From: Candidatus Uhrbacteria bacterium CG10_big_fil_rev_8_21_14_0_10_48_11
Lineage (GTDB): Bacteria > Patescibacteriota > Patescibacteriia > GWA2-46-9
DNA: 64,000 nucleotides
NCBI GenBank assembly: GCA_002793855.1
Contig: PFET01000012.1
Coordinates: 6,222 to 70,221, forward strand
Direction: 5' to 3'
The notes below the pieces were generated by a model. It was not told where the DNA came from. It worked only from the letters and a program-made list of their open reading frames with translations, and made no database searches. Made by a program: the position numbers and the translations under genes. Shown piece after piece: positions 1 to 46,222 of the stretch. How positions within the stretch are numbered: the first letter of the stretch is position 1; each line of letters starts with the position of its first letter.

Positions 1-391
1 AAGGCCGCCAAGTGTTCAGGATTACTATGCGGACTTTCTGCGGTAGACAACAACCCCATCAAATGCAGCCGACCACCATTTTCTTGCGCGTGCTTGGCCG
101 CAACGTGCAATGCTTCGTTTTTAAAAAAAGTACCGTTTTGAATGTCGCTCGTAATGCGCCGCACCTGCTGCTCGACCACACGTCCAGCGCCAAGATTCAT
201 ATGACCAGCTTCGGAGTTGCCAGCTTCTCCGTCCAAAAGCCCAACCGCCGCGCCGGAAGCGTTAAGCTCTGTCGCAACTCCAGCGGCAGTAATTACTTCT
301 AGATTACTCATCTTCGCTTGAGCAACAACGTTACCGTCGTAAGTGGACGCTATGCCAAAGCCATCCAAGATTGCAATGACAAGCGGACGAC
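1..391 (-). CDS. gpmI: 2,3-bisphosphoglycerate-independent phosphoglycerate mutase, N-terminal part (gene continues upstream of window)
   Basis: Minus-strand translation from the ATG at 391 gives MSRPLVIAILDGFGIASTYDG...HMNLGAGRVVEQQ, the conserved iPGM N-terminus. It is open to the window edge and is preferred over the 12..302 plus-strand ORF. Confidence 0.65.
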
Positions 392-1561
392 TCATAGCTC
401 GTGACGATTGGCCAGTTCGAGCAGTCGATTGTACTTGGCAACATGTCCTCCACTTCCGAAACCACCTAGCTCTACATACTCTGCGCCGGTAGCAAAAGCA
501 AAATCAATGAGAAAATCATCGAGCGTTTCTTTTGCGGAGGTACGCAAAATGCGAGGCACGTTCATACCCCTTGCTTTCACTGCATAGGCAAGCGCATCGC
601 CAATCGTTCGAAAATGCCACAAGTCAATGGCAGCCGCGCCAACCGCATGATTGGTGACTGCTTCGGTAAGTGCTCCGGCGTCTCTGTTGGCAACGTCGTT
701 GCGAAGAAAAAGCACTTGGTCTCCATACGTACCCTGCGCGCGCACCAGCGTTTGCTCGTCACGAAACGAATTCTCTACCATACCAATCGGGTAGCGCCGA
801 ATTAGCATATGGCAAAGATGAAGCATTCCTGCTTCGTCGTCTGACGTATCGGCCTCTTGCTCTTGCTGCAATGTCCGACCAAAATCTATGCCGATACGCA
901 CATCGTTACGGCGCAAACCGGCAGCATGGGTACTCTGTAATAATTGTGTAAGGGTATTATTAAGACCATCAACCGTTATCACTTCGTCGCTATTTTGTAG
1001 CGGTGCATTTGCTGACGCGGTAAACGCAGCGAGTGTCTTTCTGGCAAGATTCAGCAACGTTCTTATAGAGCGACGAGGACCACGAGAGGCTCGGGGATTT
1101 ATCGCCATGCGAACAGACCGAAACGCTCCAGTGTCATCTGTATGCACCAAAATAATAGGCACCGGCATTGCCCACCCCGGTCCAGAAAAAGGAGCAAACT
1201 CTCGCAAGTGTTCATACAGCTCACGGCCTGAAGCGCTAGCACCAACGCGAGCTACTGCCATTGAAAGTGCCCGAGCAAAAGGCGCCCAAGAATCTTGGTC
1301 GTCAAATTGCTCACACAACAAATTGATTTTTCGATCCACATCTGCCTGCTCAACCGCATCAAGACCGCGCAATGCTTTGAGTGTTTTTTCGTTTGCAAAG
1401 GTCATCGCCTCGGCAAATTGCTTGTCATTCATCTCGGCACAAGAAGCAACTGCCTCAGCTCGCTGTCCGGCAATAGTACGCACCCACGCTGTGATCGCTC
1501 GTCCTCCGTGGGCATCAAATACCTCACGAAAAGTTACGCTGTGTATCGCCGTTACTCTCAT
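392..1561 (-). CDS. Enolase-like paralog with substituted catalytic residues
   Basis: Collinear with the true enolase at 41562..42761: REVFDAHGGRAITAWV vs RKIFDSRGEPTIEVVA, MPVPIILVHTDD vs MPVP..NGGEHA, LRTSAKETLDD vs SHRSGETDD, VAKYNRLLEL vs INKYNELIRL. The GGEH Glu, the IIKP Lys, the SHRS His and the VKIG Lys are all replaced. Confidence 0.6.
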   Translation of the reverse strand: MRVTAIHSVTFREVFDAHGGRAITAWVRTIAGQRAEAVASCAEMNDKQFAEAMTFANEKTLKALRGLDAVEQADVDRKINLLCEQFDDQDSWAPFARALSMAVARVGASASGRELYEHLREFAPFSGPGWAMPVPIILVHTDDTGAFRSVRMAINPRASRGPRRSIRTLLNLARKTLAAFTASANAPLQNSDEVITVDGLNNTLTQLLQSTHAAGLRRNDVRIGIDFGRTLQQEQEADTSDDEAGMLHLCHMLIRRYPIGMVENSFRDEQTLVRAQGTYGDQVLFLRNDVANRDAGALTEAVTNHAVGAAAIDLWHFRTIGDALAYAVKARGMNVPRILRTSAKETLDDFLIDFAFATGAEYVELGGFGSGGHVAKYNRLLELANRHEL

Positions 1562-1563
1562 AG

Positions 1564-2805
1564 CTACTGCTTGCGATAAAGCGGCGGCACGGCGGCCAGT
1601 TCTTTTCCGGCAAGCAAGGTTGTCATGGCGCCTCCTCCGGTTGAACGATAGTCGACGTACGACTCCATTCCCGTACTCTTCAATACTTCAAGTGTATCGC
1701 CGCCACCGACAACACCAAACGCCGGCCCCTCAGAACGGGCAGCAATAAGCCAACCAAGCGACCGACTGCCTTGCGCGAACACTGGTTTTTCAAACATACC
1801 AACCGGCCCATTCCAAACAATCGTCGCTGCCGCCTTAATGATAGTTGCGTACTCGAGAACTGTCTTTGGCCCAATGTCGTAAATAATTTCTCCGGCTTTT
1901 ACTTTTTCACCATTTTCTAAATCAACTAAGCGAGGCATTGCTGTTGGACTTTTGGCTACCACTACATCTTTTGGTAAATGAATCAGCGCCTTCATCCCGC
2001 GACCAAAAAAGCGTCGCTGCTCTTTCAACAGTTTACGCAGTAGCACCTTCGATACTTTTTCTCCGACCGCTGATTTCCCAACCGGTATTTTTTGAATTTG
2101 TAAAAAAGTATTCGCCAACCCACCGCCAAGAAGAATGGCGCTTGTGTGCGGTGCCAGATTGGTAAGCACGGGAAGCTTATCCATTTTGATACCACCCATA
2201 AGAAGCACAAATGGTTTTTTGGGGTGAGAACGAACGTCTTCAAGTACCTTCAGTTCTCGAGCAAGTTGCCAGCCAGCGTAAGCAGGCAGCAGCTTAGCTA
2301 CGCCAAGCATCGAGGCGTGCGCACGATGTGAATTAGAAAAGCACTCGTTGACATAAACGTCACCAAGCGACGCAAGTTGTTTTGCAAATGCCGGATTGTT
2401 TGCCTCTTCTCCCGAAAAGAACCGCAAATTTTCTAATGCCAAAATATGCCCCAGCTCAATTTTTTTTGACCGCTTAGCAAGCAACCCAAAGTCATGAAGT
2501 AGCGAAAACGAAATATCCCCCACCTCGGGTGGCAGTAGCTGCTGTAGGCGCGAGATAACCGGTCGAAGCGATAGACTGGCAACGCGGCGACCGTGTGGCC
2601 GCCCGATATGGCCAACCAGTACAATTCTTGCTCTGGCCTTTGCTAAACGAACAATAGTGGACACCAACTGTTGCAGGCGAAAGTCATCTGCTACGAGCAA
2701 ACCGCCACGAGCTGTTTTTTCTAGCGGCACGTCAAGCGCGCCACGAAGGAGTACTCGCTTACCTGCCAGCTTTGCGTCGTCAGTAATTGTACGAAGTGTA
2801 CCCAT
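1564..2805 (-). CDS. pgk: Phosphoglycerate kinase
   Basis: 413 aa with the VLLRxDLDVP N-terminus and a GGGD..L C-terminal motif, in the gap-pgk operon. Confidence 0.93.
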   Translation of the reverse strand: MGTLRTITDDAKLAGKRVLLRGALDVPLEKTARGGLLVADDFRLQQLVSTIVRLAKARARIVLVGHIGRPHGRRVASLSLRPVISRLQQLLPPEVGDISFSLLHDFGLLAKRSKKIELGHILALENLRFFSGEEANNPAFAKQLASLGDVYVNECFSNSHRAHASMLGVAKLLPAYAGWQLARELKVLEDVRSHPKKPFVLLMGGIKMDKLPVLTNLAPHTSAILLGGGLANTFLQIQKIPVGKSAVGEKVSKVLLRKLLKEQRRFFGRGMKALIHLPKDVVVAKSPTAMPRLVDLENGEKVKAGEIIYDIGPKTVLEYATIIKAAATIVWNGPVGMFEKPVFAQGSRSLGWLIAARSEGPAFGVVGGGDTLEVLKSTGMESYVDYRSTGGGAMTTLLAGKELAAVPPLYRKQ

Positions 2806-2892
2806 GCTGCTAAAGAGTGTAGCACTTTTCTCTCCTGCTCGTCAGCGCAACTTACCAAAATAACGTACCCGCTTTTGGCGGGTACGGAAGTC

Positions 2893-3906
2893 TTAAATTG
2901 TTTTACCTACCAATTCTGCCATTTCTACCAGTCTATTGGCATAGCCCCACTCGTTGTCATACCAAGCCATTAGTTTCACAAGGTCACCATCAACGACTTT
3001 TGTTAGGCCAAGATCAACTATGGCAGAGTGGCTGTTGCCAATAATATCGTGGGATACTAACGGTTCGTCAGTAACGTCAAGAATCCCCTTCCAGCGCTTT
3101 TCCGCGGCCGCTTTTCGAAAGAGTTCATTAACGGCTTCAACCGTGGTTGGTTTTTTTACCACAAAGGTAAAGTCGGTAAGTGAGCCAACTGGGGTAGGAA
3201 CCCGAACCGAAAGTCCGTCAAATTTGTCGGTCAGTTCAGGAATTGTCTTGGTGGTAGCCACGGCAGCCCCCGTTGTTGTCGGCACGATATTGACAGCGGC
3301 AGCGCGTGCACGGCGCAAATCTTTATGCAGTGGTGGCGTCGGCCCATCAACCAAATTTTGTTCTGCAGTGTAGGAGTGAATAGTGGTGATAGCGCCCTTG
3401 CTAATACCCAACGCTTCTTCGAGGACCGCGGTTACCGGACCAACGCAGTTTGTTGTACAGGAGGCGTTCGAAACCATGGCGTCACTATCGTACTGACCAT
3501 GATTAACACCAAGCAGATAAGTTTTTGTTTCGCCGCCTTTGGTTGGCGCCGAGACAACGACACGCTTTGCGCCAGCTGTCAGGTGCGCGTTTGCAGCGTC
3601 ATCCCGAGTAAAACGACCGGTGCACTCTAGCACCACATCAACTTCATGCTTTCCCCATGGCAAAGTTGCCGGATCTTTCTCGGCAAAAACCTGGTACGAA
3701 ATACCGTCGACAATCAACTCGTGTTCGCTGTGGGTGATAGAGAAGGGCGCTCTTCCGTACACTGAGTCGTATTTTAAGAGTTGCGCCAAGGTTTCTGTGT
3801 CAGTTAAATCGTTGATAGCGACAATCTTAATAGCTGGATTGTTGAGCGCGATTTTAAATGCCGCCCGCCCGATTCTACCAAAACCGTTAATGGCAACCTT
3901 CAACAT
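2893..3906 (-). CDS. gap: Glyceraldehyde-3-phosphate dehydrogenase
   Basis: NGFGRIGR Rossmann motif, ASCTTNC active-site motif, 337 aa. Confidence 0.95.
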   Translation of the reverse strand: MLKVAINGFGRIGRAAFKIALNNPAIKIVAINDLTDTETLAQLLKYDSVYGRAPFSITHSEHELIVDGISYQVFAEKDPATLPWGKHEVDVVLECTGRFTRDDAANAHLTAGAKRVVVSAPTKGGETKTYLLGVNHGQYDSDAMVSNASCTTNCVGPVTAVLEEALGISKGAITTIHSYTAEQNLVDGPTPPLHKDLRRARAAAVNIVPTTTGAAVATTKTIPELTDKFDGLSVRVPTPVGSLTDFTFVVKKPTTVEAVNELFRKAAAEKRWKGILDVTDEPLVSHDIIGNSHSAIVDLGLTKVVDGDLVKLMAWYDNEWGYANRLVEMAELVGKTI

Positions 3907-3925: not shown

Positions 3926-4525
3926 TTACTGTCCTATTTCGTAGCGCGTGAAGCGCTTGATTTGTACATTCTCCCCCACTTTTGCCGTTATAGCAACCAG
4001 AAGGTCTTTTATTGTCTGCGATTCTTCTTTGATAGAGGACTGAGCAAGAAGCGCTTCTGCTTCTACAAACTTAGCAAAACTTCCCTCTAAAATCTTATCA
4101 ATAATTGTGGCATCTTTGCCGGCCAACTTACCCTCCTCCTCAAGACGCTCTTTTGCCAAACTAAGTTCTTTTGCTTTCACCTCTTCGGGAATGTCCTCGA
4201 CTGATAGGTAACGTGGATTTGTTGCGGCTACCTGCAAAGCAATGTCATGTACAAACGACTGAAAGTCTTCGTTGCGAGCGACAAAGTCGGTTTCGCAAGC
4301 AACTTCAATCAACACGCCAACACGTCCGTTCCCGTGAACGTAGGCGTGTACGATGCCCTCACTGGTCTCTCTGTCTTGCTTCTTCAATGCTTTGGCTTGT
4401 CCTCGTTTCTTCAAAAGCTCAAGCGCTTTTGCCTGGTCACCACCAGCTTCTTCGAGTGCTTTATGAATGTCGGAAATGCCCGCACCGGTTTCTCGGCGCA
4501 AGGCAACAATGGTTTCTTTTGTCAT
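3926..4525 (-). CDS. tsf: Elongation factor Ts (short form)
   Basis: N-terminal UBA-like LRxxTGAGxxDxKKAL motif, 199 aa, directly downstream of rpsB. Confidence 0.88.
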   Translation of the reverse strand: MTKETIVALRRETGAGISDIHKALEEAGGDQAKALELLKKRGQAKALKKQDRETSEGIVHAYVHGNGRVGVLIEVACETDFVARNEDFQSFVHDIALQVAATNPRYLSVEDIPEEVKAKELSLAKERLEEEGKLAGKDATIIDKILEGSFAKFVEAEALLAQSSIKEESQTIKDLLVAITAKVGENVQIKRFTRYEIGQ

Positions 4526-4576: not shown

Positions 4577-5365
4577 CTAGACGCTTGCCTTAGTCGCCGC
4601 TGGTGGAACCGACGGACTACTAACGCGTCGGGCAGTGCCACGCTTTACGGCGGCGGCGGCTTCGTCAATCATAAGTTTTAGCGAACCAACGGCATCGTCG
4701 TTTCCCGCAATTGGATACTGAACCAGATCCGGATTGGTATTCGTGTCACAAACAGCAACAATCGGAACGCCAACTTTGTTTGCTTCACCAACGGCAGTGC
4801 GCTCTCGACGTACGTCGATAAGGAAAATTGCTTCCGGCATACGTTCTAGCTTTGCGATACCACCAATGACGCCTTCCAGTCTATTGTACTCTCGCTCCCG
4901 CTCTAGCCGCTCTTTCTTTGTCATATTTTCAAATGACTTCTGTTCAATCATCCGGCCAAGTTCTTTATGGCGTGCAATCATTTTACCGATAACCGCAAAG
5001 TTCGTAAGCATCCCACCAATCCACCGATCGTGTACGTAAGGCATAGCAACCGCCTCCGCGCTACTCTTCACGTAGTTCTGAATTTGTTTCTTGGTGCCTA
5101 CAAAAAGCACATTTCCACCCTTTACAACAATGTCCTCAATAAACTTCATTGCCTTATCCATCTGCTGCCGAGTCACTTCCAGATTGATGATGTGTATCCC
5201 TTGTCTTGCAGTAAAGATAAAAGGTCGCATTTTTGGATGCCACTTAGAAGTCAAATGTCCGAAATGAACACCCGCTTTTAGCATCTCTAAAATGCTCGGC
5301 GAGGAGTTCGCCTGCTTTTCTTTATCGGCAGTGGTGACGGGACTTGTTGCTGTAGGTTCAATCAT
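4577..5365 (-). CDS. rpsB: 30S ribosomal protein S2
   Basis: MPYVHDRWIGGMLTNF motif; rpsB-tsf synteny. Confidence 0.95.
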   Translation of the reverse strand: MIEPTATSPVTTADKEKQANSSPSILEMLKAGVHFGHLTSKWHPKMRPFIFTARQGIHIINLEVTRQQMDKAMKFIEDIVVKGGNVLFVGTKKQIQNYVKSSAEAVAMPYVHDRWIGGMLTNFAVIGKMIARHKELGRMIEQKSFENMTKKERLEREREYNRLEGVIGGIAKLERMPEAIFLIDVRRERTAVGEANKVGVPIVAVCDTNTNPDLVQYPIAGNDDAVGSLKLMIDEAAAAVKRGTARRVSSPSVPPAATKASV

Positions 5366-9046: not shown

Positions 9047-10618
9047 TCAGGGCACAGGATCGTTTGATCGTCGGTTCTTGGTCGTGACCAATCGCACAAG
9101 CTCAAGACGGTTTATGGCGTCAACGTAGGCCAACGCCGACGCCATTACCACATCGGTGTGATTACCCCTTCCGCGGACAGCAATCTCACCCGTCCGGATC
9201 AGTACACTGACCTCGCCAAGTGCATCGGTGCCGCCAGTCAATCCTTTCGCCTGATAGCCCTCCAGCACCGAATAAACATAAGTACTTTTTTTGATGGCCT
9301 CGTAGCAGGCGTCAATGAGGCCATCGCCCGTCGCTGTGGCAGACTGCGATTTACCATCAATACTAATGGTCACCGCTACCTCAGGGTCTCCGTGGAGGCT
9401 TGCGACAACCCGTACATCCTCCAGCACGAACCGCTGACTGGCATCGGACTCATCACCAATCGCCACCACAATCAGATCTTCCGAAAAGATCTGGCCCTTT
9501 TTGTCAGCCAGCAACTTAAAGCGAGTAAATGCATCGCTAAAGTTGATAACCCTGGGATCAAATCCCAACTCGCGCAATGCCTTACTAAAGGCATGTCGGC
9601 CGGAATGCTTACCAAGCACCAGCGTGTTGCTGATCCGACCGACATCTTCAGGCCGCATGATCTCGTAGGTCCTGACGTTCTTGAGCACGCCATCCTGATG
9701 AATGCCCGCCTCGTGCGCGAACGCATTCGCGCCAACGATTGGTTTCGTCGGTGCAATCGTCATCCCGATCATTTTCGAAAGTGTCTGACTCGCCAGATAG
9801 ATCTGCTTCGCATTGACACGGGTGTTAATGACAAAGTGATCGTATCGAGTATTGAGCGCCATCACCACCTCTTCCAGCGCGGTATTGCCGGCTCGCTCAC
9901 CGATCCCATTGATGGTGCACTCAACCTGCCGCGCTCCGCCCTCGACCGCGGCCAAGGAATTGGCAACCGCCAGCCCCAGGTCGTTGTGACAGTGCGTGCT
10001 CCAGATGACCTGATCCGCGCTCTCCGTGCGCGCACGCAGGGTCTCGAACATCTGCCGAATTTTATCAGGTACTCCGTAGCCCGTGGTGTCGGGAACGTTG
10101 CAGACGCGGGCGCCAGCACGAATTACCTCGCCAAAGACCTGGCACAGGTAGTCGGTGTCGCTGCGCGACGCGTCCTCTGCCGAGAACTCAATGTAATCGA
10201 CGTACCTGCTGGCACGCTCGACCGCCCAAGCCGCGGCGTCAATGACCTCCTGCCGGCTCATCCCCAGCTTGTACCGCAAATGGATGTCCGAGGTCGCGAT
10301 AAAGACATGGATCCCTGGGGACTTGGCGCCATCCACTGCTCTCAACGCCGTCTCGATATCGGCCTCGCGAGTGCGAGCCAAGCTCAAGACTACGGGCCCG
10401 TCGACGGCACGAGCTACCGCCTTCACAGACTCTAAATCCCCCGGAGACGCAGCCGCAAAGCCAGCTTCTATGACGTCGACTCCGAGCGCCTCAAGCTGCC
10501 GCGCAACGGCGAGCTTCTCATCAACGTTCATCGTGCAGCCCGGCGACTGCTCTCCGTCACGTAGGGTCGTATCGAAGATCCGAACCCAGTCATTACTTCC
10601 GTCCCTGTATTTTCCCAT
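9047..10618 (-). CDS. leuA: 2-isopropylmalate synthase (LeuA family, with C-terminal regulatory domain); GC about 58-60%
   Basis: [30 protein letters not shown], and a C-terminal GDGLIDA LeuA_dimer domain; 523 aa. GC and GC3 are clearly higher than in the flanking genes. Confidence 0.85.
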
Positions 10619-12000: not shown

Positions 12001-12879
12001 CTAAAAACGAATCTGGTCGGCTTGTCCTCGCATGAAGTTGTCAGCGTTGACGATGTCGACATTCGGCACTACTAAAACATCAGTCACTCCTAAAATGGTA
12101 TTGTAGAGATTTATAGTAACGGGGCGTTGCTCCCCCGCCTTTAATTGGTCAAGAGCAAGGGCTTGAGCAGCTACAGCACGTGACCCCTGCAGAAGTACCA
12201 CCGTAAAACCGGTCGACCAAAATCCATTAGCGCTCTCGTTTGCTACGGTAAATGACACCTGCCCGGGCAAACTCAAACCGGCACTATCAACCCCCCGACC
12301 AGAGGTAAATGAAACACCGCTAACTACAAAGTGCGGCTTCAAGGCGTTGAAAGCGTCAGGAATATGCAATCGCTGCCACTTGATGTTGTTTATACGAATC
12401 GGCAAATTCGCACTCGGTGAAGTAGCGGCACCAACGCTAACCGCAAATCGCTCCTCGTTGTTTAATACCAAAACCGTATCACTACCATTACTACCATCGC
12501 CAACCTGATACGTTACCCACGCTACCCAATTTGGATTTGGATTAAAAAATTTAACCAACGCGTCATATTTGCCATTGCGACCACTGCCTGCCAGTACCGT
12601 GCCGGTTGAAGTACTGATGGGATGCGGTGAAATAATACGATGCCAGTTCGCCGTATCAACACTGGTTGAGAGCGCGTACAGCACCTGTTGGTCTGCGACG
12701 CGAGAAAATACGTACAAATTAAGGAGCTGATAACCAGAATACAACAACACAACCGCTTCAACCGCCACCACAATACCGATGACCATAAGGCGAAATCGAC
12801 TATGATTCGTTATCCAAAATTGAGCCCAACGAAACCACGAGTCGTTCAGTACCGGGTTTACGTTTTCAGTGTCACGCAT
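12001..12879 (-). CDS. Hypothetical protein with N-terminal TM anchor and extracytoplasmic domain
   Basis: Single N-terminal hydrophobic helix (MVIGIVVAVEAVVLLY); no recognisable motif. Confidence 0.45.
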   Translation of the reverse strand: MRDTENVNPVLNDSWFRWAQFWITNHSRFRLMVIGIVVAVEAVVLLYSGYQLLNLYVFSRVADQQVLYALSTSVDTANWHRIISPHPISTSTGTVLAGSGRNGKYDALVKFFNPNPNWVAWVTYQVGDGSNGSDTVLVLNNEERFAVSVGAATSPSANLPIRINNIKWQRLHIPDAFNALKPHFVVSGVSFTSGRGVDSAGLSLPGQVSFTVANESANGFWSTGFTVVLLQGSRAVAAQALALDQLKAGEQRPVTINLYNTILGVTDVLVVPNVDIVNADNFMRGQADQIRF

Positions 12880-22995: not shown

Positions 22996-23592
22996 ATGGC
23001 ACATTTACAAAATAATACTGAAACGCTCAACCCCTATGGAGCCTGCTCGGCTTATATTATAGGGTTTGCTATTGCCTGTAAGCATCTCTCTCTAAATTCT
23101 GCGGCAAAAATCTTCTGGTTTCTCGCAGAACACAAGCAGGAGCTCGACGAGGCACTTCCTTCAACGATGGAGGCAATAGAGCTTGGACGTACGTGTGAGC
23201 AAATCAACGCGTTTTTGGAGATCCAAGAGAGCCTCGGCGGAATGGTTCGGCACTCTATCGCGATACAGACACCATGGTGCGACACTATCGAGGAACTATG
23301 TACAAGGCTCTGCGAAGTGAGTGCCCCCCTCGTCTTCTGGGACGAATATCGCGCGCAGGCAATAATCGACCTGCTCCAACTCATCGCAAACTTGCCTGAG
23401 GGTAAAGCCCTACAGGCAATCCTTCGTCTTTACGAAGACGGAAGTCCATCATATTCGGATATTATCCGATACGGCTGGCTTGGAATGGAATCTGAAGCTG
23501 CGAGATCTGCTCTTGATGGTGTACTTGCCAGCGAAAAGTCCTTTCATCGTAATTATCAGACAACGCTTGTCACCGAGGCCGGTCAAACATGA
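22996..23592 (+). CDS. Hypothetical all-alpha protein (198 aa), monocistronic unit
   Basis: Strong AAGGAGG Shine-Dalgarno sequence 8 nt upstream; no recognisable motif; terminators on both sides. Confidence 0.55.
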   Translation: MAHLQNNTETLNPYGACSAYIIGFAIACKHLSLNSAAKIFWFLAEHKQELDEALPSTMEAIELGRTCEQINAFLEIQESLGGMVRHSIAIQTPWCDTIEELCTRLCEVSAPLVFWDEYRAQAIIDLLQLIANLPEGKALQAILRLYEDGSPSYSDIIRYGWLGMESEAARSALDGVLASEKSFHRNYQTTLVTEAGQT

Positions 23593-24864: not shown

Positions 24865-25422
24865 TCATTCAATCCGCTCCCCTGCAAGGTGCGCAAATTC
24901 GTAGGCATCTACCATGGCTAGCCAGCTTGCCTCAGTGACGCTTCTCGCTGTCGCCACGGTTCGGAAGTCCCAGCCATGGAACGTCCAGTCCACGACAACC
25001 TTGACCCGTGCCGCAGAGCCGCCACTACCAACCTTAAAAACGTGGTAATCACCGAGCTCCAAGCCCAAAGCTTTGACTTCAGCAACTTTGTTCATTGCGT
25101 TATCAAGCGCATTGATGGGCCCGTCTCCACGACCGGCCACATGGTCTTCTTGCCCTGTTTCCAGACGAAGCATGATTGTTGCTTCGGCAGGCTCTGCAGT
25201 TCCATCATCACCGCTTCGATGTAATTCACATACTCGGTACCACTCGACAAAAACAAAGGAGCAATTTGATCCATTCTCTCGAAACTGCGCCATTGCAATC
25301 GAAACAGCCTCCTCGCGTACGTATTCGCCATTCATTAAAAAAACCGCGATACGTACACCCCTTTCTCCGCTAAGATCCAAAAGACCCAACTCGCTGAGTT
25401 TCGCGAAATCAATTTTTTTCAT
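24865..25422 (-). CDS. Stand-alone LeuA regulatory (LeuA_dimer-like) domain protein, 185 aa
   Basis: GRGDGPINALDNAMNKV and VGSGGSAARVKVVVD...VTEASWLAMVDAYEF align with the C-terminal R-domain of the leuA product in this window ([15 protein letters not shown]...[11 protein letters not shown]...[13 protein letters not shown]). Strong GGGGAGGAAGGG Shine-Dalgarno sequence. Confidence 0.55.
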   Translation of the reverse strand: MKKIDFAKLSELGLLDLSGERGVRIAVFLMNGEYVREEAVSIAMAQFRENGSNCSFVFVEWYRVCELHRSGDDGTAEPAEATIMLRLETGQEDHVAGRGDGPINALDNAMNKVAEVKALGLELGDYHVFKVGSGGSAARVKVVVDWTFHGWDFRTVATARSVTEASWLAMVDAYEFAHLAGERIE

Positions 25423-41561: not shown

Positions 41562-42761
41562 CTATTCGTCGTAGAGACGAATGAGCTCGTTGTACTTGTT
41601 GATTCTCTCGTTTCTCGGAGCCCCAATTTTAACCGCATCCGCGCTGCCGGCCTTTGCTAGCTCGATAATAAAGGGATCATCCGTCTCTCCTGAACGATGA
41701 GAGACAATAGTGGTGAGTTTATGCTGGCGAGCGATTTCTAGCGCCCTACACGACTCACTTACCGTTCCTACCTGATTCGGCTTAATGATAACCCCGCTAA
41801 TGCAAGCACGCTCGGCAAACCCCTCAATACGCTTTGGGTTTGTTACCGTAAGATCGTCACCAACAACCGAAAGATTAGGCAATGCCTCCAAAAGAGCGGC
41901 AAACCCCTCAGCGTCATCTTCAGCAAAAGGATCCTCGATACTAATAAGCCTAGGGATTTCGGTAGTAAATTTCTTGTACACTTCAACCATTTCCCCCGCA
42001 TTTATTGTTTTGCCACCAAATCGGTAACTCCCGTCATGATAAAAACTAGAAGCTGCGGCATCAAGCGCCAAGGATAAGCGATCCGAAAGCGACGACTCTT
42101 CTATGAGCGAGCTAAGTATTTTTAATGGTTCTTCATTGTTTTTAAAATCTACACAGTAGCCAGCTTCGTCACCAACCGGCAGTGCTTCCAGCTTACGGGA
42201 AGTGCGGAGCTGTTCCCCCAAAGTTCGGTAGAGAGCCACCAGTTCTTGTGTTAGTTCGGCGTAGGATATTTTTGGAGCAGCCACGAGCATATACTCTTGA
42301 ATAGCAAGATTGTTAGCAGCATGCTCGCCACCATTAATGACATTACTGTAAATGCGCGGACGAACGGCACCACTAACGTGGGCAAAAAACTCTTCGTGCA
42401 GTACCTCTGAAAGTTGCCTTGACTGTTCGGCGGCTAACGCGCGAGAGAGGGCAACAGAAATCGCAAGCGTAATGTTGCCGCCAAGTATAGCCTTGGTATC
42501 TGTTGTATCAATCCCTAGCAGTAGCTCGTCAACTTCATGAACGGAGCCGTACTCTCTGCCGAGCATTGCCTTTCGAAGCGCCTCAATTGACTGTTCGGCT
42601 TCATGGTACGAAAACACTTTTGCCTCTGCACTACCACGACTTTTACCTGAGGGCACCGCAGCACGATGAGAAACACGAGCGCCGTCGAGTGCTACAACTT
42701 CGATGGTCGGCTCACCACGAGAGTCAAAAATTTTTCTGACGCGTAGATCGTCTAACTTCAT
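41562..42761 (-). CDS. eno: Enolase
   Basis: SHRSGETDD, IIKPNQVGT and NGGEHA motifs; 399 aa. Confidence 0.95.
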   Translation of the reverse strand: MKLDDLRVRKIFDSRGEPTIEVVALDGARVSHRAAVPSGKSRGSAEAKVFSYHEAEQSIEALRKAMLGREYGSVHEVDELLLGIDTTDTKAILGGNITLAISVALSRALAAEQSRQLSEVLHEEFFAHVSGAVRPRIYSNVINGGEHAANNLAIQEYMLVAAPKISYAELTQELVALYRTLGEQLRTSRKLEALPVGDEAGYCVDFKNNEEPLKILSSLIEESSLSDRLSLALDAAASSFYHDGSYRFGGKTINAGEMVEVYKKFTTEIPRLISIEDPFAEDDAEGFAALLEALPNLSVVGDDLTVTNPKRIEGFAERACISGVIIKPNQVGTVSESCRALEIARQHKLTTIVSHRSGETDDPFIIELAKAGSADAVKIGAPRNERINKYNELIRLYDE

Positions 42762-43774
42762 TGCTGTGGTACTACATGCTCCGGCTTACCTGCTAAAAAA
42801 GCACGAAGATTGCCATAGGTAACGTCCATAATTCTTTCCATTGCCTCTTGGCTGTTAAACGCATTGTGTGGACTTACCAGAACGTTTGGCATTGTAATAA
42901 GCACCCTATTTTCTAGCGCGAGTTTTACTGCTTCTGGATCAGCGTCAGCGTGGCGCAAGAGCGCCGTTTCGTCACCGATTTCGCCTTCCCCTTCAAGCAC
43001 GTCAAGCGCCGCGCCGGCAACCGTACCGTCTTGTAATGCCGTTACTAACGCATCGGTTTCGATAAGCCCACCGCGCGCTGTGTTTACAATAAATACCCCG
43101 CGTTTAATCTGCTTGAGATTTTTTGCATTCAACAAATGATGCGTCGCCTCACTGTACGGTGCATGCAAGGTGACTACATCAGAGTTAGCCAAAAGTTCGT
43201 CCAGACTAACATAGCGGTAACCAAGCTCCGCTGCCGTTTCTTCTTTCGGATAAGGGTCGTAAGCTAGTACCCGCATATCGAACCCGAGAGCTATGTTGAC
43301 GGATACCATCCCGATACGACCGGTACCAATAATACCAATTGTTTTTCCACTAAGATCAGTACCGCGTAGTTCTTCGGGAGAAAATGGACCAGATTCTTTA
43401 ATACGATCTAGCGCCGTGTATACTTTGCGGGTAAGACTAAGCAGTAATCCAAACGCATACTCGGCAACCGTATGGTCGCCGTACCCAGGGACATAAGAAA
43501 CAATAATTCCGCGCTCTTTACATGCCGCAAGCGCCAGATGATCAAAACCCGTTGAACGGGTCGAAATGAACTTGAGCGCCGGCATCTTAAGCAACTCTTC
43601 CTTGGTCACTTTGGAACTAACAAAAACAGATAGCACCTCTAGCTTTGCCTTGTCTTCGTCGCTGATTTCGGCGAGTGATTTTTTTGCCAAAAACAGCTCC
43701 TCGTCAGGAAATTCTTTTCTAATCCGTTCTTCTTCCCACCCCTCGAGATCGATAAATCCAACAGTGTGCGCCAT
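42758..43774 (-). CDS. D-isomer-specific 2-hydroxyacid (D-lactate) dehydrogenase
   Basis: GIIGTGRIG NAD-binding motif and a catalytic R..E..H triad; 338 aa. Confidence 0.8.
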   Translation of the reverse strand: MAHTVGFIDLEGWEEERIRKEFPDEELFLAKKSLAEISDEDKAKLEVLSVFVSSKVTKEELLKMPALKFISTRSTGFDHLALAACKERGIIVSYVPGYGDHTVAEYAFGLLLSLTRKVYTALDRIKESGPFSPEELRGTDLSGKTIGIIGTGRIGMVSVNIALGFDMRVLAYDPYPKEETAAELGYRYVSLDELLANSDVVTLHAPYSEATHHLLNAKNLKQIKRGVFIVNTARGGLIETDALVTALQDGTVAGAALDVLEGEGEIGDETALLRHADADPEAVKLALENRVLITMPNVLVSPHNAFNSQEAMERIMDVTYGNLRAFLAGKPEHVVPQQ

Positions 43775-43780
43775 ACGAAT

Positions 43781-46222
43781 TTACCGTTTCTTTTTACTGA
43801 CCTTCTCAACCGTCTTCTTTCCGAAAGCGAGCAACATAGGAATGACGGCGTCAGGATTAAGTGAGATACTCTCAATACCTTTACTGATTAAGAACTTGCC
43901 AAAGTCTAGATAGTCAGACGGCGCCTGCCCACAAATACCGATATACTTTTTGCGTCGAAGACAAGCGGCAATTGCCATAGCAACCATTTGCTTCAAGGCT
44001 GGCTCGCGCTCGTTAGCGACGTGCGCAACGATACCGCTATCCCTATCAAGACCAAGCGTGAGCTGCGTAAGGTCATTCGAACCAATTGACATACCATCAA
44101 ACACATCCAGAAAGGCATCTGCCTCCATAACGTTTGAAGGTATTTCGCACATAACGTATACCTTCAATTTTTTATCATTGGCGCGATCCAGCTTGTGTTG
44201 TGCCATTACCGCCCGAACCTTACGGCCCTCATCTGGTGTTCGACAAAACGGCACCATCGGCACAACATTAACCATCCCTAGTTTGGTTCGGACACGGCGC
44301 ATTGCCTCGCACTCTAAGCCAAATGCTTTCGTAAACTTTTCGTCGTAGTAGCGTGACGCACCGCGCCACCCAAGCATCGGGTTTTCTTCTACTGGCTCGT
44401 ACCGCTCGCCACCAAGCAATGTTCGATACTCGTTCGTTTTGAAATCAGAAAAACGAATAATGACATCGTGCGGCCAAAAGGTCGCCGCAATTTTTGCGAT
44501 GCCTTCAGTAAGCTTCGCGACGTAGTATTCTCGCTTGTCGCTGTACCCAACGGTTAACTGGTCAATGGCCGCCACTAATTTTTCTGTCTTTTTGTTGTGT
44601 TGCGCCTCTTTTTGTAATTTCGCGTAGTCGATAAGCGCGTTTGGATGAACACCAACGTGTCCGGCAATAATAAACTCAAGCCGTCCAAGACCGACACCCT
44701 CCACCGGAAGCGCATGTAGACGAAACACGTCATCTGGCGAACCAATGTTTACCATAATGTGCGTCTTCATCTTTGGTAGCTTAGGCAAAGAATGACGTTT
44801 GACCACAAACGGTACCTTACCTGCATAGATGTTACCGACTTCTCCTGATGAGCAATCGATGGTAATGAGCTGTCCATTTTTAAGCACTGTTGTTGCTTGA
44901 CTTGTACCGACAATACACGGAATACCAAGTTCTCTTGATACAATTGCCGCATGGCTTGTCCTGCCACCCTTGTCCGTGATAATCGCCGAAGCTATTTTCA
45001 TAATTGGCTCCCAGTCTGGATCGGTTATTTGCGTAACCAGCACTTCTCCTTTTTTGAAACTTCCCATCTGTGAGGCAGATTGAATAGCACGAACCTTCCC
45101 GCTACCAATCGTAGACCAAACGGCAACTCCGCTAAGTAGCGTCTTTCCTTGACCCTTAAGCGCGTACTCGGTGTAGACCGTTTTGTCCGTTAGCGCCTGC
45201 ACGGTTTCTGGTCTGGCCTGAACAATATAGAGCGTGTTGGTCTTGCCGTCTTTTGCCCATTCGATATCCATTGGCTGGTAGTGCCCATGTTTTTTTGAAA
45301 AGTAGCGCTCTATCTCTACGCACCATCGAGCAAGCGTTGTCACTTCTTTGTCGGTTAGGCAGTAAACCGTTTCGTCCTCTTTTTTTACCGAAACCTGCCG
45401 AATGCCAGTTTTTGCATAAATCATTTTTTGCTTTTTCTTACCTAGCGTCCGTTCGATAATTGCCTGCTTGCCAGCCGCCAACGTCGGTTTAAAAACAATA
45501 AACTCATCAGGAATAACTTTACCCTGCACAATCATCTCGCCCAAACCGTACGAACCGGTAACCACGACAACATTTGAAAAGCCGGTTTCGGTGTGTACGG
45601 TAAACACCACCCCGCTTGTCGCGAGGTCAGAACGAACCATAATTTGAACACCAACCGAGAGAGCGACCTTCGTGTGAGAAAAGCCCTTATCGGCCCGGTA
45701 CGAAATGGCACGATCGGTAAAGAGAGAAGCAAAGCAGCGACGAGTCGCGTCAAGAACTGCCTCAGCCCCTTCGATATTAAGAAACGTTTCTTGCTGTCCG
45801 GCAAATGATGCCCCTGGCAAATCCTCTGCCGTCGCGGACGAGCGAACCGCGACCCCAATGCGCTTCCCAAAACGTTTTTCAAGCTCCCCGTAAGAGCGCA
45901 CTATTTCCCTCTCCATGTCCGCAGGAAATGCTGTTTTCAAAAAAAGGTCCCGTACCTGCTTTCCTCGACGTTGTAAATCAGCAACCTTTTTTGTTTTCAA
46001 CACCTTTAAAATACTGGCAATTTTCTTATCAATGGCGTTGTGCGTCACAAACTCTCGGTAGGCATGCGCAGTAATCGCATAACCGTCCGGTACGTTAATA
46101 CCTTTCCGGACGAGTACCTGAAAAAGCTCCCCTAGCGCCGCGTTCTTTCCGCCAACCAGCGGCACGTCTTCAATGTGTAGTTCCCGAAAAGGGATAGTCA
46201 GGCGGTCGGTCTTCTTTGCCAT
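43781..46222 (-). CDS. ppsA: Phosphoenolpyruvate synthase / PEP-utilising dikinase
   Basis: N-terminal LVGGKNAALGE ATP-grasp domain, central phospho-His domain and C-terminal PEP-utilising TIM barrel; 813 aa. Confidence 0.8.
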   Translation of the reverse strand: MAKKTDRLTIPFRELHIEDVPLVGGKNAALGELFQVLVRKGINVPDGYAITAHAYREFVTHNAIDKKIASILKVLKTKKVADLQRRGKQVRDLFLKTAFPADMEREIVRSYGELEKRFGKRIGVAVRSSATAEDLPGASFAGQQETFLNIEGAEAVLDATRRCFASLFTDRAISYRADKGFSHTKVALSVGVQIMVRSDLATSGVVFTVHTETGFSNVVVVTGSYGLGEMIVQGKVIPDEFIVFKPTLAAGKQAIIERTLGKKKQKMIYAKTGIRQVSVKKEDETVYCLTDKEVTTLARWCVEIERYFSKKHGHYQPMDIEWAKDGKTNTLYIVQARPETVQALTDKTVYTEYALKGQGKTLLSGVAVWSTIGSGKVRAIQSASQMGSFKKGEVLVTQITDPDWEPIMKIASAIITDKGGRTSHAAIVSRELGIPCIVGTSQATTVLKNGQLITIDCSSGEVGNIYAGKVPFVVKRHSLPKLPKMKTHIMVNIGSPDDVFRLHALPVEGVGLGRLEFIIAGHVGVHPNALIDYAKLQKEAQHNKKTEKLVAAIDQLTVGYSDKREYYVAKLTEGIAKIAATFWPHDVIIRFSDFKTNEYRTLLGGERYEPVEENPMLGWRGASRYYDEKFTKAFGLECEAMRRVRTKLGMVNVVPMVPFCRTPDEGRKVRAVMAQHKLDRANDKKLKVYVMCEIPSNVMEADAFLDVFDGMSIGSNDLTQLTLGLDRDSGIVAHVANEREPALKQMVAMAIAACLRRKKYIGICGQAPSDYLDFGKFLISKGIESISLNPDAVIPMLLAFGKKTVEKVSKKKR

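What the first reader, a model, noticed from the sequence alone, without database searches (positions are those of the whole stretch)
392..1561. Catalytically degenerate enolase paralog in the tpiA slot of the gap-pgk operon
The ORF between pgk and gpmI, where triose-phosphate isomerase normally sits, is collinear with enolase over its full length. Every canonical catalytic residue is replaced: GGEHA becomes HTDDT, IIKPNQ becomes AIDLWH, SHRSGETDD becomes LRTSAKETLDD, and VKIG becomes VELG. A true eno lies 40 kb away. It may be a pseudoenzyme, a moonlighting protein, or a non-orthologous replacement for an activity such as TIM or 2-PG handling. No tpiA was seen in this window.
Basis: partly seen in the sequence, partly recalled or inferred. 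Interest (0 to 1): 0.65.

Follow-up and report, generated by a model that had tools for sequence, protein, structure and literature searches.

The report
Dead enolase copy kept in glycolysis operon
A tiny-genome groundwater bacterium (Candidatus Uhrbacteria) keeps, inside its pgk-gpmI glycolysis operon, an enolase-fold gene that has lost the enolase active site but is still under selection, while a second, intact enolase elsewhere does the chemistry; it is a rare pseudo-enolase of unknown role, not a triose-phosphate isomerase substitute.

Summary
The ORF at 392-1561 (minus strand, 389 aa) is real. It is a full-length enolase homologue (TIGR01060 71 bits against a cut-off of 300; AlphaFold pLDDT 90; Foldseek TM 0.85 to solved enolases). 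It lies between pgk and gpmI. Of 15 canonical active-site positions, 11 are replaced or deleted. Only D246, E295, D321 and perhaps H159 remain, so the Mg(I) triad is broken (D320 to N).

An intact enolase lies at 41562-42761 in a conserved ppsA-dehydrogenase-eno cluster. No tpiA is in the window.

The "tpiA slot" framing is wrong. In another Uhrbacteria genome the same rpsB-tsf-gap-pgk-[ ]-gpmI slot holds a canonical enolase. The ORF is therefore the positional descendant of the operon's own enolase.

It is not a pseudogene. Against its 51%-identical orthologue, pN is 0.32 while pS is saturated at 0.80. Related degenerate copies sit directly after pgk in three other lineages.

The former active site is no better conserved than the rest of the protein. 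The best-conserved parts are two family-specific surface loops (FAPFSGPGW and NPRASRGPRRS).

Most likely it is a non-catalytic pseudo-enolase kept for a binding or assembly role. That role is inferred, not shown. The family is very rare, and the interest is moderate.

The parts
392..1561 (-). X: a 389-aa enolase-fold protein with a degenerate active site. NCBI names it hypothetical protein COV04_03440, Candidatus Uhrbacteria bacterium CG10_big_fil_rev_8_21_14_0_10.
1172..1198 (-). Codons for FAPFSGPGW (aa 122-130). This family-specific loop lies in the linker between the N-terminal domain and the barrel and is invariant in X, P0002 and P0036. It aligns with Tyr135-Asn140 of S. aureus enolase, the centre of the octamer dimer-dimer interface.
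   Evidence: PMC4667285.
1067..1099 (-). Codons for NPRASRGPRRS (aa 155-165). This Arg-rich loop follows the second, antiparallel barrel strand. It is the best-conserved segment between X and P0002 (10 of 11 residues). R157 is invariant in the five family members aligned.
884..886 (-). D226, equivalent to yeast D246 (Mg-I ligand). It is kept, and is the only active-site residue invariant in all 7 family members.
773..775 (-). E263, equivalent to yeast E295 (Mg-I ligand). It is kept in X and P0002, is Q in P0036, and is I in the second clade.
695..700 (-). N288-D289, equivalent to yeast D320-D321. The Mg-I ligand D320 is replaced by Asn (His in P0002). D321 is kept.
623..625 (-). D313 in place of the general base K345.
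533..541 (-). T341-S342-A343 in place of H373-R374-S375, the residues that bind the substrate phosphate.
470..472 (-). E364 in place of K396 (K in P0002).
1..395 (-). 5' part of gpmI (2,3-bisphosphoglycerate-independent phosphoglycerate mutase). Its ATG overlaps the stop codon of X as ATGA. The full gene is 517 aa on the contig and scores 540 bits on TIGR01307.
1564..2805 (-). pgk (phosphoglycerate kinase). Its stop codon lies 2 nt before the ATG of X.
2864..2886 (-). GC-rich hairpin followed by a T-rich tail, between gap and pgk. It looks like a terminator or attenuator. A promoter-like site lies at 2786-2813.
   Evidence: These are consensus scans only.
2893..3906 (-). gap (glyceraldehyde-3-phosphate dehydrogenase).
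41562..42761 (-). eno2: an intact 399-aa enolase with all 15 catalytic positions canonical. It scores 292 bits on TIGR01060.
42758..43774 (-). D-isomer-specific 2-hydroxyacid dehydrogenase. It overlaps eno2 by 4 nt.
43781..46222 (-). ppsA (phosphoenolpyruvate synthase). It heads the conserved ppsA-dehydrogenase-eno2 cluster.

Best explanation
X is the vertically inherited operon copy of enolase (gap-pgk-eno-gpmI) of an Uhrbacteria lineage. It lost enolase chemistry once a second, intact enolase (eno2, in the ppsA-dehydrogenase-eno2 cluster) was present.

What X keeps and what it has lost:
- It keeps the two-domain enolase fold.
- It has lost the general base (K345 to D), the acid side (E211 and E168), the Mg(II) Ser39 loop, one Mg(I) ligand (D320 to N), and the phosphate and carboxylate binders (H373, R374, S375, K396).
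- It therefore cannot be a phosphopyruvate hydratase.

X is nevertheless kept by purifying selection and is translationally coupled to pgk and gpmI. Selection acts on two new, spatially adjacent surface loops on the face of the barrel opposite the catalytic mouth (FAPFSGPGW and the Arg-rich NPRASRGPRRS), not on the old active site.

The most likely mode of action is therefore non-catalytic. X would be a pseudo-enolase that uses the enolase scaffold and this new patch to bind a partner or assemble into an oligomer. Likely partners are the lower-glycolysis enzymes it is made with (Pgk, GpmI) or the live enolase.

Shown: homology, fold, loss of catalytic residues, synteny-based origin, selection, and the conservation pattern.
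Inferred: the absence of any catalysis, the binding role, and the identity of the partner.
For: Homology and fold:
-.

Loss of active-site residues:
- 11 of 15 positions are lost, with the alignments agreeing across.

Origin:
- A canonical enolase, P0324, sits in the same rpsB-tsf-gap-pgk--gpmI-...-YceG slot in GCA_964513275.1 and GCA_016209265.1.
- The intermediate P0036 sits in the same slot. It scores 282 bits on TIGR01060. Its best relatives are ordinary Patescibacteria enolases at 35-38% identity, against 26% to eno2.
- The rare GWx[LM]P signature is shared only with P0324-type enolases: 2 of 119, 0 of 62 and 0 of 62 in the three comparison sets.

Selection:
- Against P0002, pN is 0.32 while pS is 0.80 (saturated). 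The ORF is intact in X, P0002, P0036 and P0043, and in each it lies directly after pgk.

Relaxed active site:
- Active-site columns show 0.25-0.46 pairwise identity against 0.26-0.50 overall in the family. Canonical enolases show 1.00 against 0.54.
- Barrel-mouth windows show 0.49 identity against 0.51 overall.
- Each member breaks the Mg site differently: D-E-N, D-E-H, D-Q-D or D-I-x.

New conserved surface:
- The linker (residues 111-133) shows 0.83 identity and the loop (155-165) shows 0.91.
- The linker loop maps onto the octamer interface of S. aureus enolase.
- Strands 134-141 and 149-154 form a hairpin, so the two loops lie at the same end of the barrel.

Other:
- An intact enolase is on the same contig.
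- The gene junctions are coupled.
Against: - No experiment and no complex prediction was possible, so no partner has been identified.
- D226, E263 and D289 persist in X and P0002, and Asn or His at position 288 could still ligate a metal. A metal-dependent activity is therefore not excluded.
- Coexistence with a second intact enolase is shown only for this genome. It is not shown for P0002, P0036 or P0043.
- The NJ tree does not place the family inside the resident CPR enolase clade. All degenerate sequences cluster together, probably through long-branch attraction. Origin therefore rests on synteny, best hits and one rare motif.
Confidence: 0.55

Rival explanations
1. X is a neofunctionalised enzyme. 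It would use the remaining carboxylates (D226, E263, D289, plus the new D313 and N288) and a metal for a different reaction on a small phosphorylated or carboxylated metabolite of lower glycolysis.
For: - D226, E263, N264, D289 and D313 are identical in X and P0002 at 51% overall identity.
- The operon context with pgk and gpmI is conserved.
- The enolase superfamily is known for changing chemistry on a conserved metal site (established knowledge).
Against: - Residues at the barrel mouth are no more conserved than average (0.49 against 0.51).
- The putative new residues are not shared with P0036 (Q292, Q344) or with the P0038/P0043 clade.
- No candidate general base is conserved.
- The lid loops (Ser39 loop, E211 loop) are deleted or variable, with 0.15-0.29 identity.
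Confidence: 0.2
2. X is a prozyme-like partner. It would form heterodimers with the live enolase eno2 and modulate it. This is a specific sub-case of the non-catalytic reading.
For: - A dead and a live enolase are on one contig.
- The elements used for enolase dimerisation (beta1-3, alpha5, alpha12 in S. aureus enolase) are retained at average or better conservation.
- One metagenomic protein, P0037, is a tandem fusion of a dead enolase and a canonical enolase.
- There is precedent in trypanosomatid AdoMetDC and DHS prozymes (PMC5201418 and PMC3663545, listed).
Against: - X is co-transcribed with pgk and gpmI, not with eno2, which lies 40 kb away in another operon.
- X and eno2 are only 23% identical.
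- The fusion is a single instance from a different clade and could be a gene-calling artefact.
- No interface analysis was possible.
Confidence: 0.12
3. X is a non-orthologous replacement for triose-phosphate isomerase, or another missing glycolytic step.
For: - No tpiA is found in the 64-kb window or in the 6.7 kb downstream to the contig end.
- X lies in a glycolytic operon.
Against: - The slot is the enolase slot in this lineage. Uhrbacteria with a canonical operon enolase also have no tpiA nearby.
- X has no similarity to TIM.
- No active site is conserved in the family.
- The rest of the genome was not searched, so absence of tpiA is unproven.
Confidence: 0.02
4. X is a decaying relic with no function, that is, a pseudogene in progress.
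For: - It evolves faster than its neighbours: dN is 0.42, against 0.25 for pgk and 0.16 for gap.
- Its active site is destroyed.
Against: - pN (0.32) is far below the saturated pS (0.80).
- Full-length ORFs are kept in at least four divergent lineages, with blocks that are 83-91% conserved.
- The confident AF2 fold indicates a well-packed protein.
- CPR genomes are streamlined (general knowledge).
Confidence: 0.05

Closest known systems
Canonical enolase / phosphopyruvate hydratase (EC 4.2.1.11; TIGR01060; Pfam PF03952 + PF00113). Examples are E. coli Eno (PDB 1E9I, 6D3Q) and the Uhrbacteria operon enolase P0324.
   Same: - The same two-domain fold (TM 0.82-0.86).
- Collinear over the full length.
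- The same operon position as P0324.
- D246, E295 and D321 are kept, as are the ET-DD and YNRLL structural motifs.
   Different: - 71 bits against the 300-bit equivalog cut-off.
- K345, E211, E168, Q167, D320, D296, H373, R374, S375 and K396 are replaced.
- The Ser39 lid loop is deleted.
- There are new conserved surface loops.
Catalytically dead paralogues that partner with live enzymes ("prozymes"). Examples are trypanosomatid AdoMetDC prozyme and DHS (PMC5201418, PMC3663545).
   Same: A dead homologue is kept under selection alongside a live enzyme of the same family.
   Different: - No complex or activation is shown here.
- X is encoded with other pathway enzymes, not with the live enolase.
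- The organism is bacterial (CPR).
Other degenerate enolase-family proteins: vertebrate ENO4 (P0209-P0212), the archaeal enolase-like family PRK08350/NF006223, and the many degenerate metagenomic enolases seen.
   Same: They are divergent enolase-family members that fall below the equivalog threshold or have altered active sites.
   Different: - X does not match NF006223.
- X is only remotely related to ENO4.
- The X clade is defined by its own motifs and by its position directly after pgk.
- What is known of ENO4 function is from memory and was not tested here.
Mechanistically diverse enolase superfamily (the mandelate racemase and muconate lactonising enzyme subgroups).
   Same: A capping domain plus a barrel, with carboxylate metal ligands at the ends of strands 3-5.
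   Different: - All 50 best structural hits belong to the enolase subgroup itself.
- No KxK, Lys or His-Asp base motifs were identified.
- One metal ligand is lost.

Membership tests
Enolase (phosphopyruvate hydratase, EC 4.2.1.11, TIGR01060) | Two-domain fold: an N-terminal alpha+beta capping domain plus a bbaa(ba)6 barrel. | tested here: met
   The AF2 model has pLDDT 90.1 and pTM 0.90. Foldseek TM is 0.82-0.86 to solved enolases, best E=2.6e-26.
Enolase (phosphopyruvate hydratase, EC 4.2.1.11, TIGR01060) | Score above the curated equivalog cut-off (300 bits). | tested here: not met
   X scores 71.3 bits. For comparison, P0324 scores 612 and eno2 scores 292.
Enolase (phosphopyruvate hydratase, EC 4.2.1.11, TIGR01060) | General base Lys345 and acid-side Glu211/Glu168 (yeast numbering). 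| tested here: not met
   K345 is replaced by D313, E168 by S149, and E211 is deleted or unaligned.
Enolase (phosphopyruvate hydratase, EC 4.2.1.11, TIGR01060) | Mg(I) ligands Asp246, Glu295 and Asp320. | tested here: not met
   D226 and E263 are kept, but D320 is replaced by N288 (H in P0002).
Enolase (phosphopyruvate hydratase, EC 4.2.1.11, TIGR01060) | Mg(II) and lid loop carrying Ser39 (SGASTG). | tested here: not met
   The loop is deleted in X and P0002.
Enolase (phosphopyruvate hydratase, EC 4.2.1.11, TIGR01060) | Substrate phosphate and carboxylate binders His373, Arg374, Ser375 and Lys396. | tested here: not met
   They are replaced by T341, S342, A343 and E364.
Enolase (phosphopyruvate hydratase, EC 4.2.1.11, TIGR01060) | 2-PG to PEP activity. 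| not testable with these tools
   This needs an enzyme assay or complementation.
Pseudoenzyme (a catalytically deficient homologue kept by selection) | Clear homology to an enzyme family together with loss of essential catalytic residues. | tested here: met
Pseudoenzyme (a catalytically deficient homologue kept by selection) | Maintained by purifying selection, so not a pseudogene. | tested here: met
   pN is 0.32 against a saturated pS of 0.80. Intact syntenic copies exist in 4 lineages.
Pseudoenzyme (a catalytically deficient homologue kept by selection) | The former active site is not under catalytic constraint. | tested here: met
   Active-site columns are as variable as average columns in the family.
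Pseudoenzyme (a catalytically deficient homologue kept by selection) | Demonstrated lack of any catalysis, and a defined non-catalytic role. | not testable with these tools
   This needs biochemistry and interaction studies.
Triose-phosphate isomerase (tpiA, PF00121) | Sequence or profile similarity to TIM (about 250 aa, with Lys12, His95 and Glu165). | tested here: not met
   The Pfam scan of X at E<=1 lists only Enolase_N and Enolase_C. A validated TpiA query finds nothing in the window.
Triose-phosphate isomerase (tpiA, PF00121) | Occupies the tpiA position of the operon in related genomes. | tested here: not met
   Related Uhrbacteria have a canonical enolase in this position.
Enolase superfamily, non-enolase subgroups (MR, MLE and others) | Closest structural or sequence relatives lie in those subgroups, with their acid/base motifs. 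| tested here: not met
   All top hits are enolases proper.

The most novel reading that the evidence does not exclude
The dead enolase is an obligatory non-catalytic subunit in these ultra-small CPR bacteria. It would act as a scaffold or regulator that uses its new aromatic and Arg-rich surface patch to organise or control Pgk, GpmI and/or the live enolase. This would be a bacterial "prozyme" or metabolon organiser born from the pathway's own enzyme. Less likely, it is an enzyme with new chemistry on the remnant metal site.
Probability: 0.3. Interest if true: 0.6.

Novelty: new variant of a known kind. Interest (0 to 1): 0.42.

Why it matters
- **Annotation.** Candidate Phyla Radiation genomes are used to infer minimal metabolism from gene presence. 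Here a Pfam "enolase" call (JGI names the orthologue "enolase") marks a protein that cannot be an enolase, while the working enzyme is a divergent copy that itself falls just under the NCBI cut-off. Pathway reconstructions could therefore be wrong in both directions.
- **Evolution.** It is a clean natural example of in-place functional displacement. The operon copy of a core glycolytic enzyme lost its chemistry yet was kept under selection across several lineages of streamlined genomes. That argues for a non-catalytic role of the enolase scaffold.
- **Testability.** The two conserved loops give concrete mutagenesis targets.
- **Limit.** The family is very rare: one of 185,579 species representatives carries the motif. 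Its general importance is therefore limited.

Tried and rejected
1. **Mg(I) triad.** I first scored the Mg(I) triad as fully retained. Checking against yeast numbering showed that my scripts had labelled D321 as D320. Corrected, D320 is replaced by N288 (corrected).
2. **Charge swap at the dimer salt bridge.** I considered a charge swap at E20/R414 as evidence that X is insulated from eno2. I rejected it because most CPR enolases already have E at the "R414" column.
3. **NJ phylogeny for origin.** The seven degenerate sequences are monophyletic (93% bootstrap), but all degenerate sequences cluster together. This is probably long-branch attraction, so the tree was not used to infer origin.
4. 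**Metagenome scan with eno2.** I used it to test whether P0002's contig also carries eno2. Neither this contig nor P0002's contig is in that collection (best hit 50%). It did reveal the conserved ppsA-dehydrogenase-eno2 cluster.
5. **Genome scan for the family motifs.** Only P0002's genome was found.
6. **afdb50 fold search.** The library was not available.
7. **Literature.** Searches for bacterial or CPR pseudo-enolases and for Uhrbacteria glycolysis found nothing relevant.
8. **Composition.** GC and GC3 give no sign of recent transfer for either X or eno2.
9. **Family searches.** The alignment-based search did not return P0036 or P0038 because of its word-index limit. P0036 was recovered by a direct search. 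P0038, P0108 and P0125 could not be looked up for genomic context.
Full report
**What is at the coordinates.** The window carries, on the minus strand, rpsB (4577-5365), tsf (3926-4525), gap (2893-3906), pgk (1564-2805), a 389-aa ORF here called X (392-1561), and the start of gpmI (ATG at 395). The pgk stop lies 2 nt before the ATG of X, and the TGA of X overlaps the gpmI ATG as ATGA. X cannot have its own promoter and is presumably translationally coupled on both sides. A strong hairpin with a T-rich tail lies between gap and pgk (consensus scan only). The exact protein is in NCBI as [quoted passage not shown] on a 104,992-bp contig.

**Is X an enolase homologue?** Yes, well beyond chance.
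- Pfam gives Enolase_N (34 bits) plus Enolase_C (30 bits).
- NCBIfam TIGR01060 gives E=6e-20, with residues 8-384 matching profile positions 3-407 of 425. The score is only 71 bits against a cut-off of 300.
- phmmer against PDB sequences gives enolases only.
- An AlphaFold2 model built on a 59-sequence alignment has pLDDT 90.1 and pTM 0.90.
- Its 50 best Foldseek matches in the PDB are all enolases, at TM 0.82-0.86 and about 19% identity.

**State of the active site.** I mapped 15 canonical positions using yeast numbering. My recalled yeast sequence reproduced every numbered residue. The mapping used a 313-sequence alignment, and it agrees with the HMMER and MAFFT alignments.

| Yeast position | In X |
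|---|---|
| Ser39 lid loop | deleted |
| H159 | H140 (F in the orthologue, so probably fortuitous) |
| Q167 | R |
| E168 | S |
| E211 | deleted or unaligned |
| D246 | D226, kept |
| E295 | E263, kept |
| D296 | N |
| D320 | N288 |
| D321 | D289, kept |
| K345 | D313 |
| H373 / R374 / S375 | T / S / A |
| K396 | E364 |

"Every" catalytic residue is an overstatement, since two of the three Mg(I) ligands survive.
- An earlier version of my own table wrongly scored the triad as intact, because I had labelled D321 as D320. This is corrected.
- From established enzymology (from memory), single K345A, E168Q or E211Q substitutions in yeast enolase reduce activity by about five orders of magnitude. 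X therefore cannot be a working phosphopyruvate hydratase.

**The true enolase.** ORF 41562-42761 (399 aa, eno2) has all 15 positions canonical and 44 of 48 of the columns that are at least 95% conserved in enolases. It is itself divergent, at 292 bits on TIGR01060, just under the cut-off. It overlaps a D-2-hydroxyacid dehydrogenase gene by 4 nt and follows ppsA. The same ppsA-dehydrogenase-eno arrangement recurs on several metagenomic contigs at 39-50% enolase identity (L013, L014, L016 and L019; also L038 and L046 at about 36%).

**The "tpiA slot".** No tpiA is in the window, in the 6.7 kb downstream to the contig end, or in the related loci. The E. coli TpiA query was validated against PDB, and it found TIM genes at E of about 1e-30 in unrelated loci, which serves as a positive control.

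The premise is nevertheless wrong for this lineage. In two other Candidatus Uhrbacteria assemblies (GCA_964513275.1 and GCA_016209265.1) the order is L31 | rpsB-tsf-gap-pgk-ENO-gpmI-...-YceG. The enolase there (P0324, 417 aa) scores 612 bits and has 48 of 48 conserved columns. X therefore occupies the enolase position. Lack of tpiA in the operon is the norm in this group. Whether tpiA exists elsewhere in this genome could not be tested.

**Relatives.**
- An exhaustive profile search of 1.84 billion representative proteins found only two hits below 1e-30.
- The family comprises X; P0002 (51% identity, a Patescibacteria MAG); P0036 (about 31-35%); and a second clade of P0038, P0043, P0108 and P0125 (about 23-28%).
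- Every member whose context could be read lies directly after pgk. P0002 sits in rpsB-tsf-gap-pgk-X-gpmI. P0036 sits in rpsB-tsf-gap-pgk-X'-fpg..., without gpmI. P0043 sits in pgk-X''-(truncated iPGM).
- Among 185,579 species-representative genomes, only P0002's genome carries the family motifs.
- TIGR01060 scores fall stepwise: P0324 612, P0036 282, P0043 124, P0038 100, P0002 96, X 71.
- P0036's nearest relatives are ordinary Patescibacteria enolases at 35-38% identity, against 26% to eno2.
- The signature GWx[LM]P just before the first barrel strand is shared by X, P0002 and P0036 with P0324-type enolases. It occurs in only 2 of 119 other CPR enolases, and in 0 of 62 and 0 of 62 in the other comparison sets.
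- Together with synteny, this makes X the decayed positional descendant of the operon enolase, not an inserted paralogue.
- A neighbour-joining tree supports monophyly of the seven (93%). It lumps all degenerate sequences together, so I do not use it for origin.

**Is X functional?**
- Against P0002, synonymous sites are saturated (pS 0.80) while pN is 0.32. The corresponding pN is 0.21 for pgk and 0.15 for gap.
- X therefore evolves faster than its neighbours but under clear purifying selection.
- Composition (GC3 0.44) matches the genome.
- Intact, syntenic ORFs in four divergent lineages rule out a pseudogene.

**Where selection acts.**
- In canonical enolases the 15 active-site columns are invariant (1.00 pairwise identity against 0.54 overall).
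- In the X family they are no better conserved than average: 0.46 against 0.50 for X and P0002, 0.36 against 0.32 for the three-member clade, and 0.25 against 0.26 for all seven.
- Windows at the C-terminal ends of the barrel strands show 0.49 identity against 0.51 overall.
- Each lineage breaks the metal site differently: D-E-N, D-E-H, D-Q-D or D-I-x.
- The best-conserved parts of X and P0002 are the domain linker at 111-133 (0.83, containing FAPFSGPGW, which is invariant also in P0036) and the loop at 155-165 (0.91, NPRASRGPRRS; R157 is invariant in the five members aligned).
- In the model, strands 134-141 and 149-154 form a hairpin. This matches the known antiparallel second strand of the enolase barrel. 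The two loops therefore lie side by side at the end of the barrel opposite the catalytic mouth.
- The linker loop aligns with Tyr135-Asn140 of S. aureus enolase, the centre of the dimer-dimer interface of the octamer (PMC4667285; alignment; my recalled S. aureus sequence reproduced all residue numbers quoted in the paper).

**Interpretation.** The pattern is an active site in free decay, a preserved scaffold, and a new conserved surface patch. It is what is expected of a pseudoenzyme retained for binding or assembly, not of an enzyme with new chemistry. I therefore favour a non-catalytic pseudo-enolase (confidence about 0.55). Its partner is unknown. The enzymes it is made with (Pgk, GpmI) and the live enolase are the obvious candidates.

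The rivals, with my estimates, are:
- a new metal-dependent activity using D226, E263, D289 and D313 (0.2);
- a prozyme-like heterodimer with eno2 (0.12), hinted at by one tandem dead-plus-live enolase fusion, P0037;
- functionless decay (0.05);
- TIM replacement (0.02).

**Comparison with what is known.** X belongs to the enolase structural family but fails the defining tests for phosphopyruvate hydratase: score, base, acid, one metal ligand, lid loop and substrate binders. It meets the testable criteria for a pseudoenzyme. I found no description of such a bacterial pseudo-enolase in the paper library, though that search was limited. Degenerate enolases are not unique to this clade. Of 134 full-length hits to the X profile, 41 have at least 4 of 14 catalytic positions replaced.

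**Verdict.** X is a real feature and a new variant of a known kind. It is useful as a warning for metabolic reconstruction of CPR genomes and as a tidy case of in-place displacement. It is very rare and has no demonstrated function, so interest is moderate (0.42).

Noticed in passing
L004 3233-4051 (contig logan:SRR24075713_149546): A 272-aa iPGM-like gene lies directly after the degenerate enolase P0043. It matches TIGR01307 only at profile positions 4-72 and 371-499, so the phosphotransferase domain is missing. It reads GNYRAGYH where iPGM has GNSEVGH, so the catalytic Ser is lost. In that lineage both genes after pgk look degenerate.
   Followed up: partly
P0037 (888 aa, representative-library hit): This is a tandem fusion. 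The first half (aa 60-411, 222 bits) is an enolase with K345 replaced by M and with H159, E168 and the Ser39 loop lost. The second half (aa 430-867, 466 bits) is a canonical enolase. It may be a Rosetta-stone hint that dead and live subunits work together. It is a single instance and could be a gene-calling artefact.
   Followed up: partly
Representative-library hits P0036-P0183: Of 134 full-length hits to the X profile, 41 have at least 4 of 14 catalytic positions replaced, and 19 lack K345. Degenerate enolase homologues therefore recur in metagenomes. Their genomic contexts could not be looked up.
   Followed up: partly
window 41562-46222; loci L013, L014, L016, L019, L038, L046: A ppsA, D-2-hydroxyacid dehydrogenase and enolase cluster is conserved. 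The enolase is a short (about 399 aa), divergent but catalytically complete form. It scores 292 bits, just under the NCBI equivalog cut-off of 300, so automatic annotation may miss the working enzyme.
   Followed up: partly
L011 9430-12643: In another Patescibacteria contig, two full-length gpmI copies lie in tandem after a canonical enolase.
   Followed up: no
window 24865-25422: A 185-aa ORF matches only the LeuA allosteric/dimerisation domain, without the catalytic HMGL-like domain. A full leuA-like gene lies at 9047-10618.
   Followed up: no
window 12001-12879 and 22996-23592: ORFs of 292 aa and 198 aa have no Pfam match at E<=0.001.
   Followed up: no
window 2864-2886 (minus strand): A 9-bp GC-rich hairpin followed by TTATTTTGG lies between gap and pgk, and a promoter-like site overlaps the pgk start (2786-2813). 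This may be partial termination that separates rpsB-tsf-gap from pgk-X-gpmI.
   Followed up: no
window 1557-1566 and 390-399: The pgk/X and X/gpmI junctions both read GCTATGAG around the downstream ATG.
   Followed up: no
L006 7675-8728: In the P0036 genome, gap and pgk are separated by a 97-aa ORF with no family match and about 760 nt of apparently non-coding DNA. gpmI is absent after the degenerate enolase.
   Followed up: no
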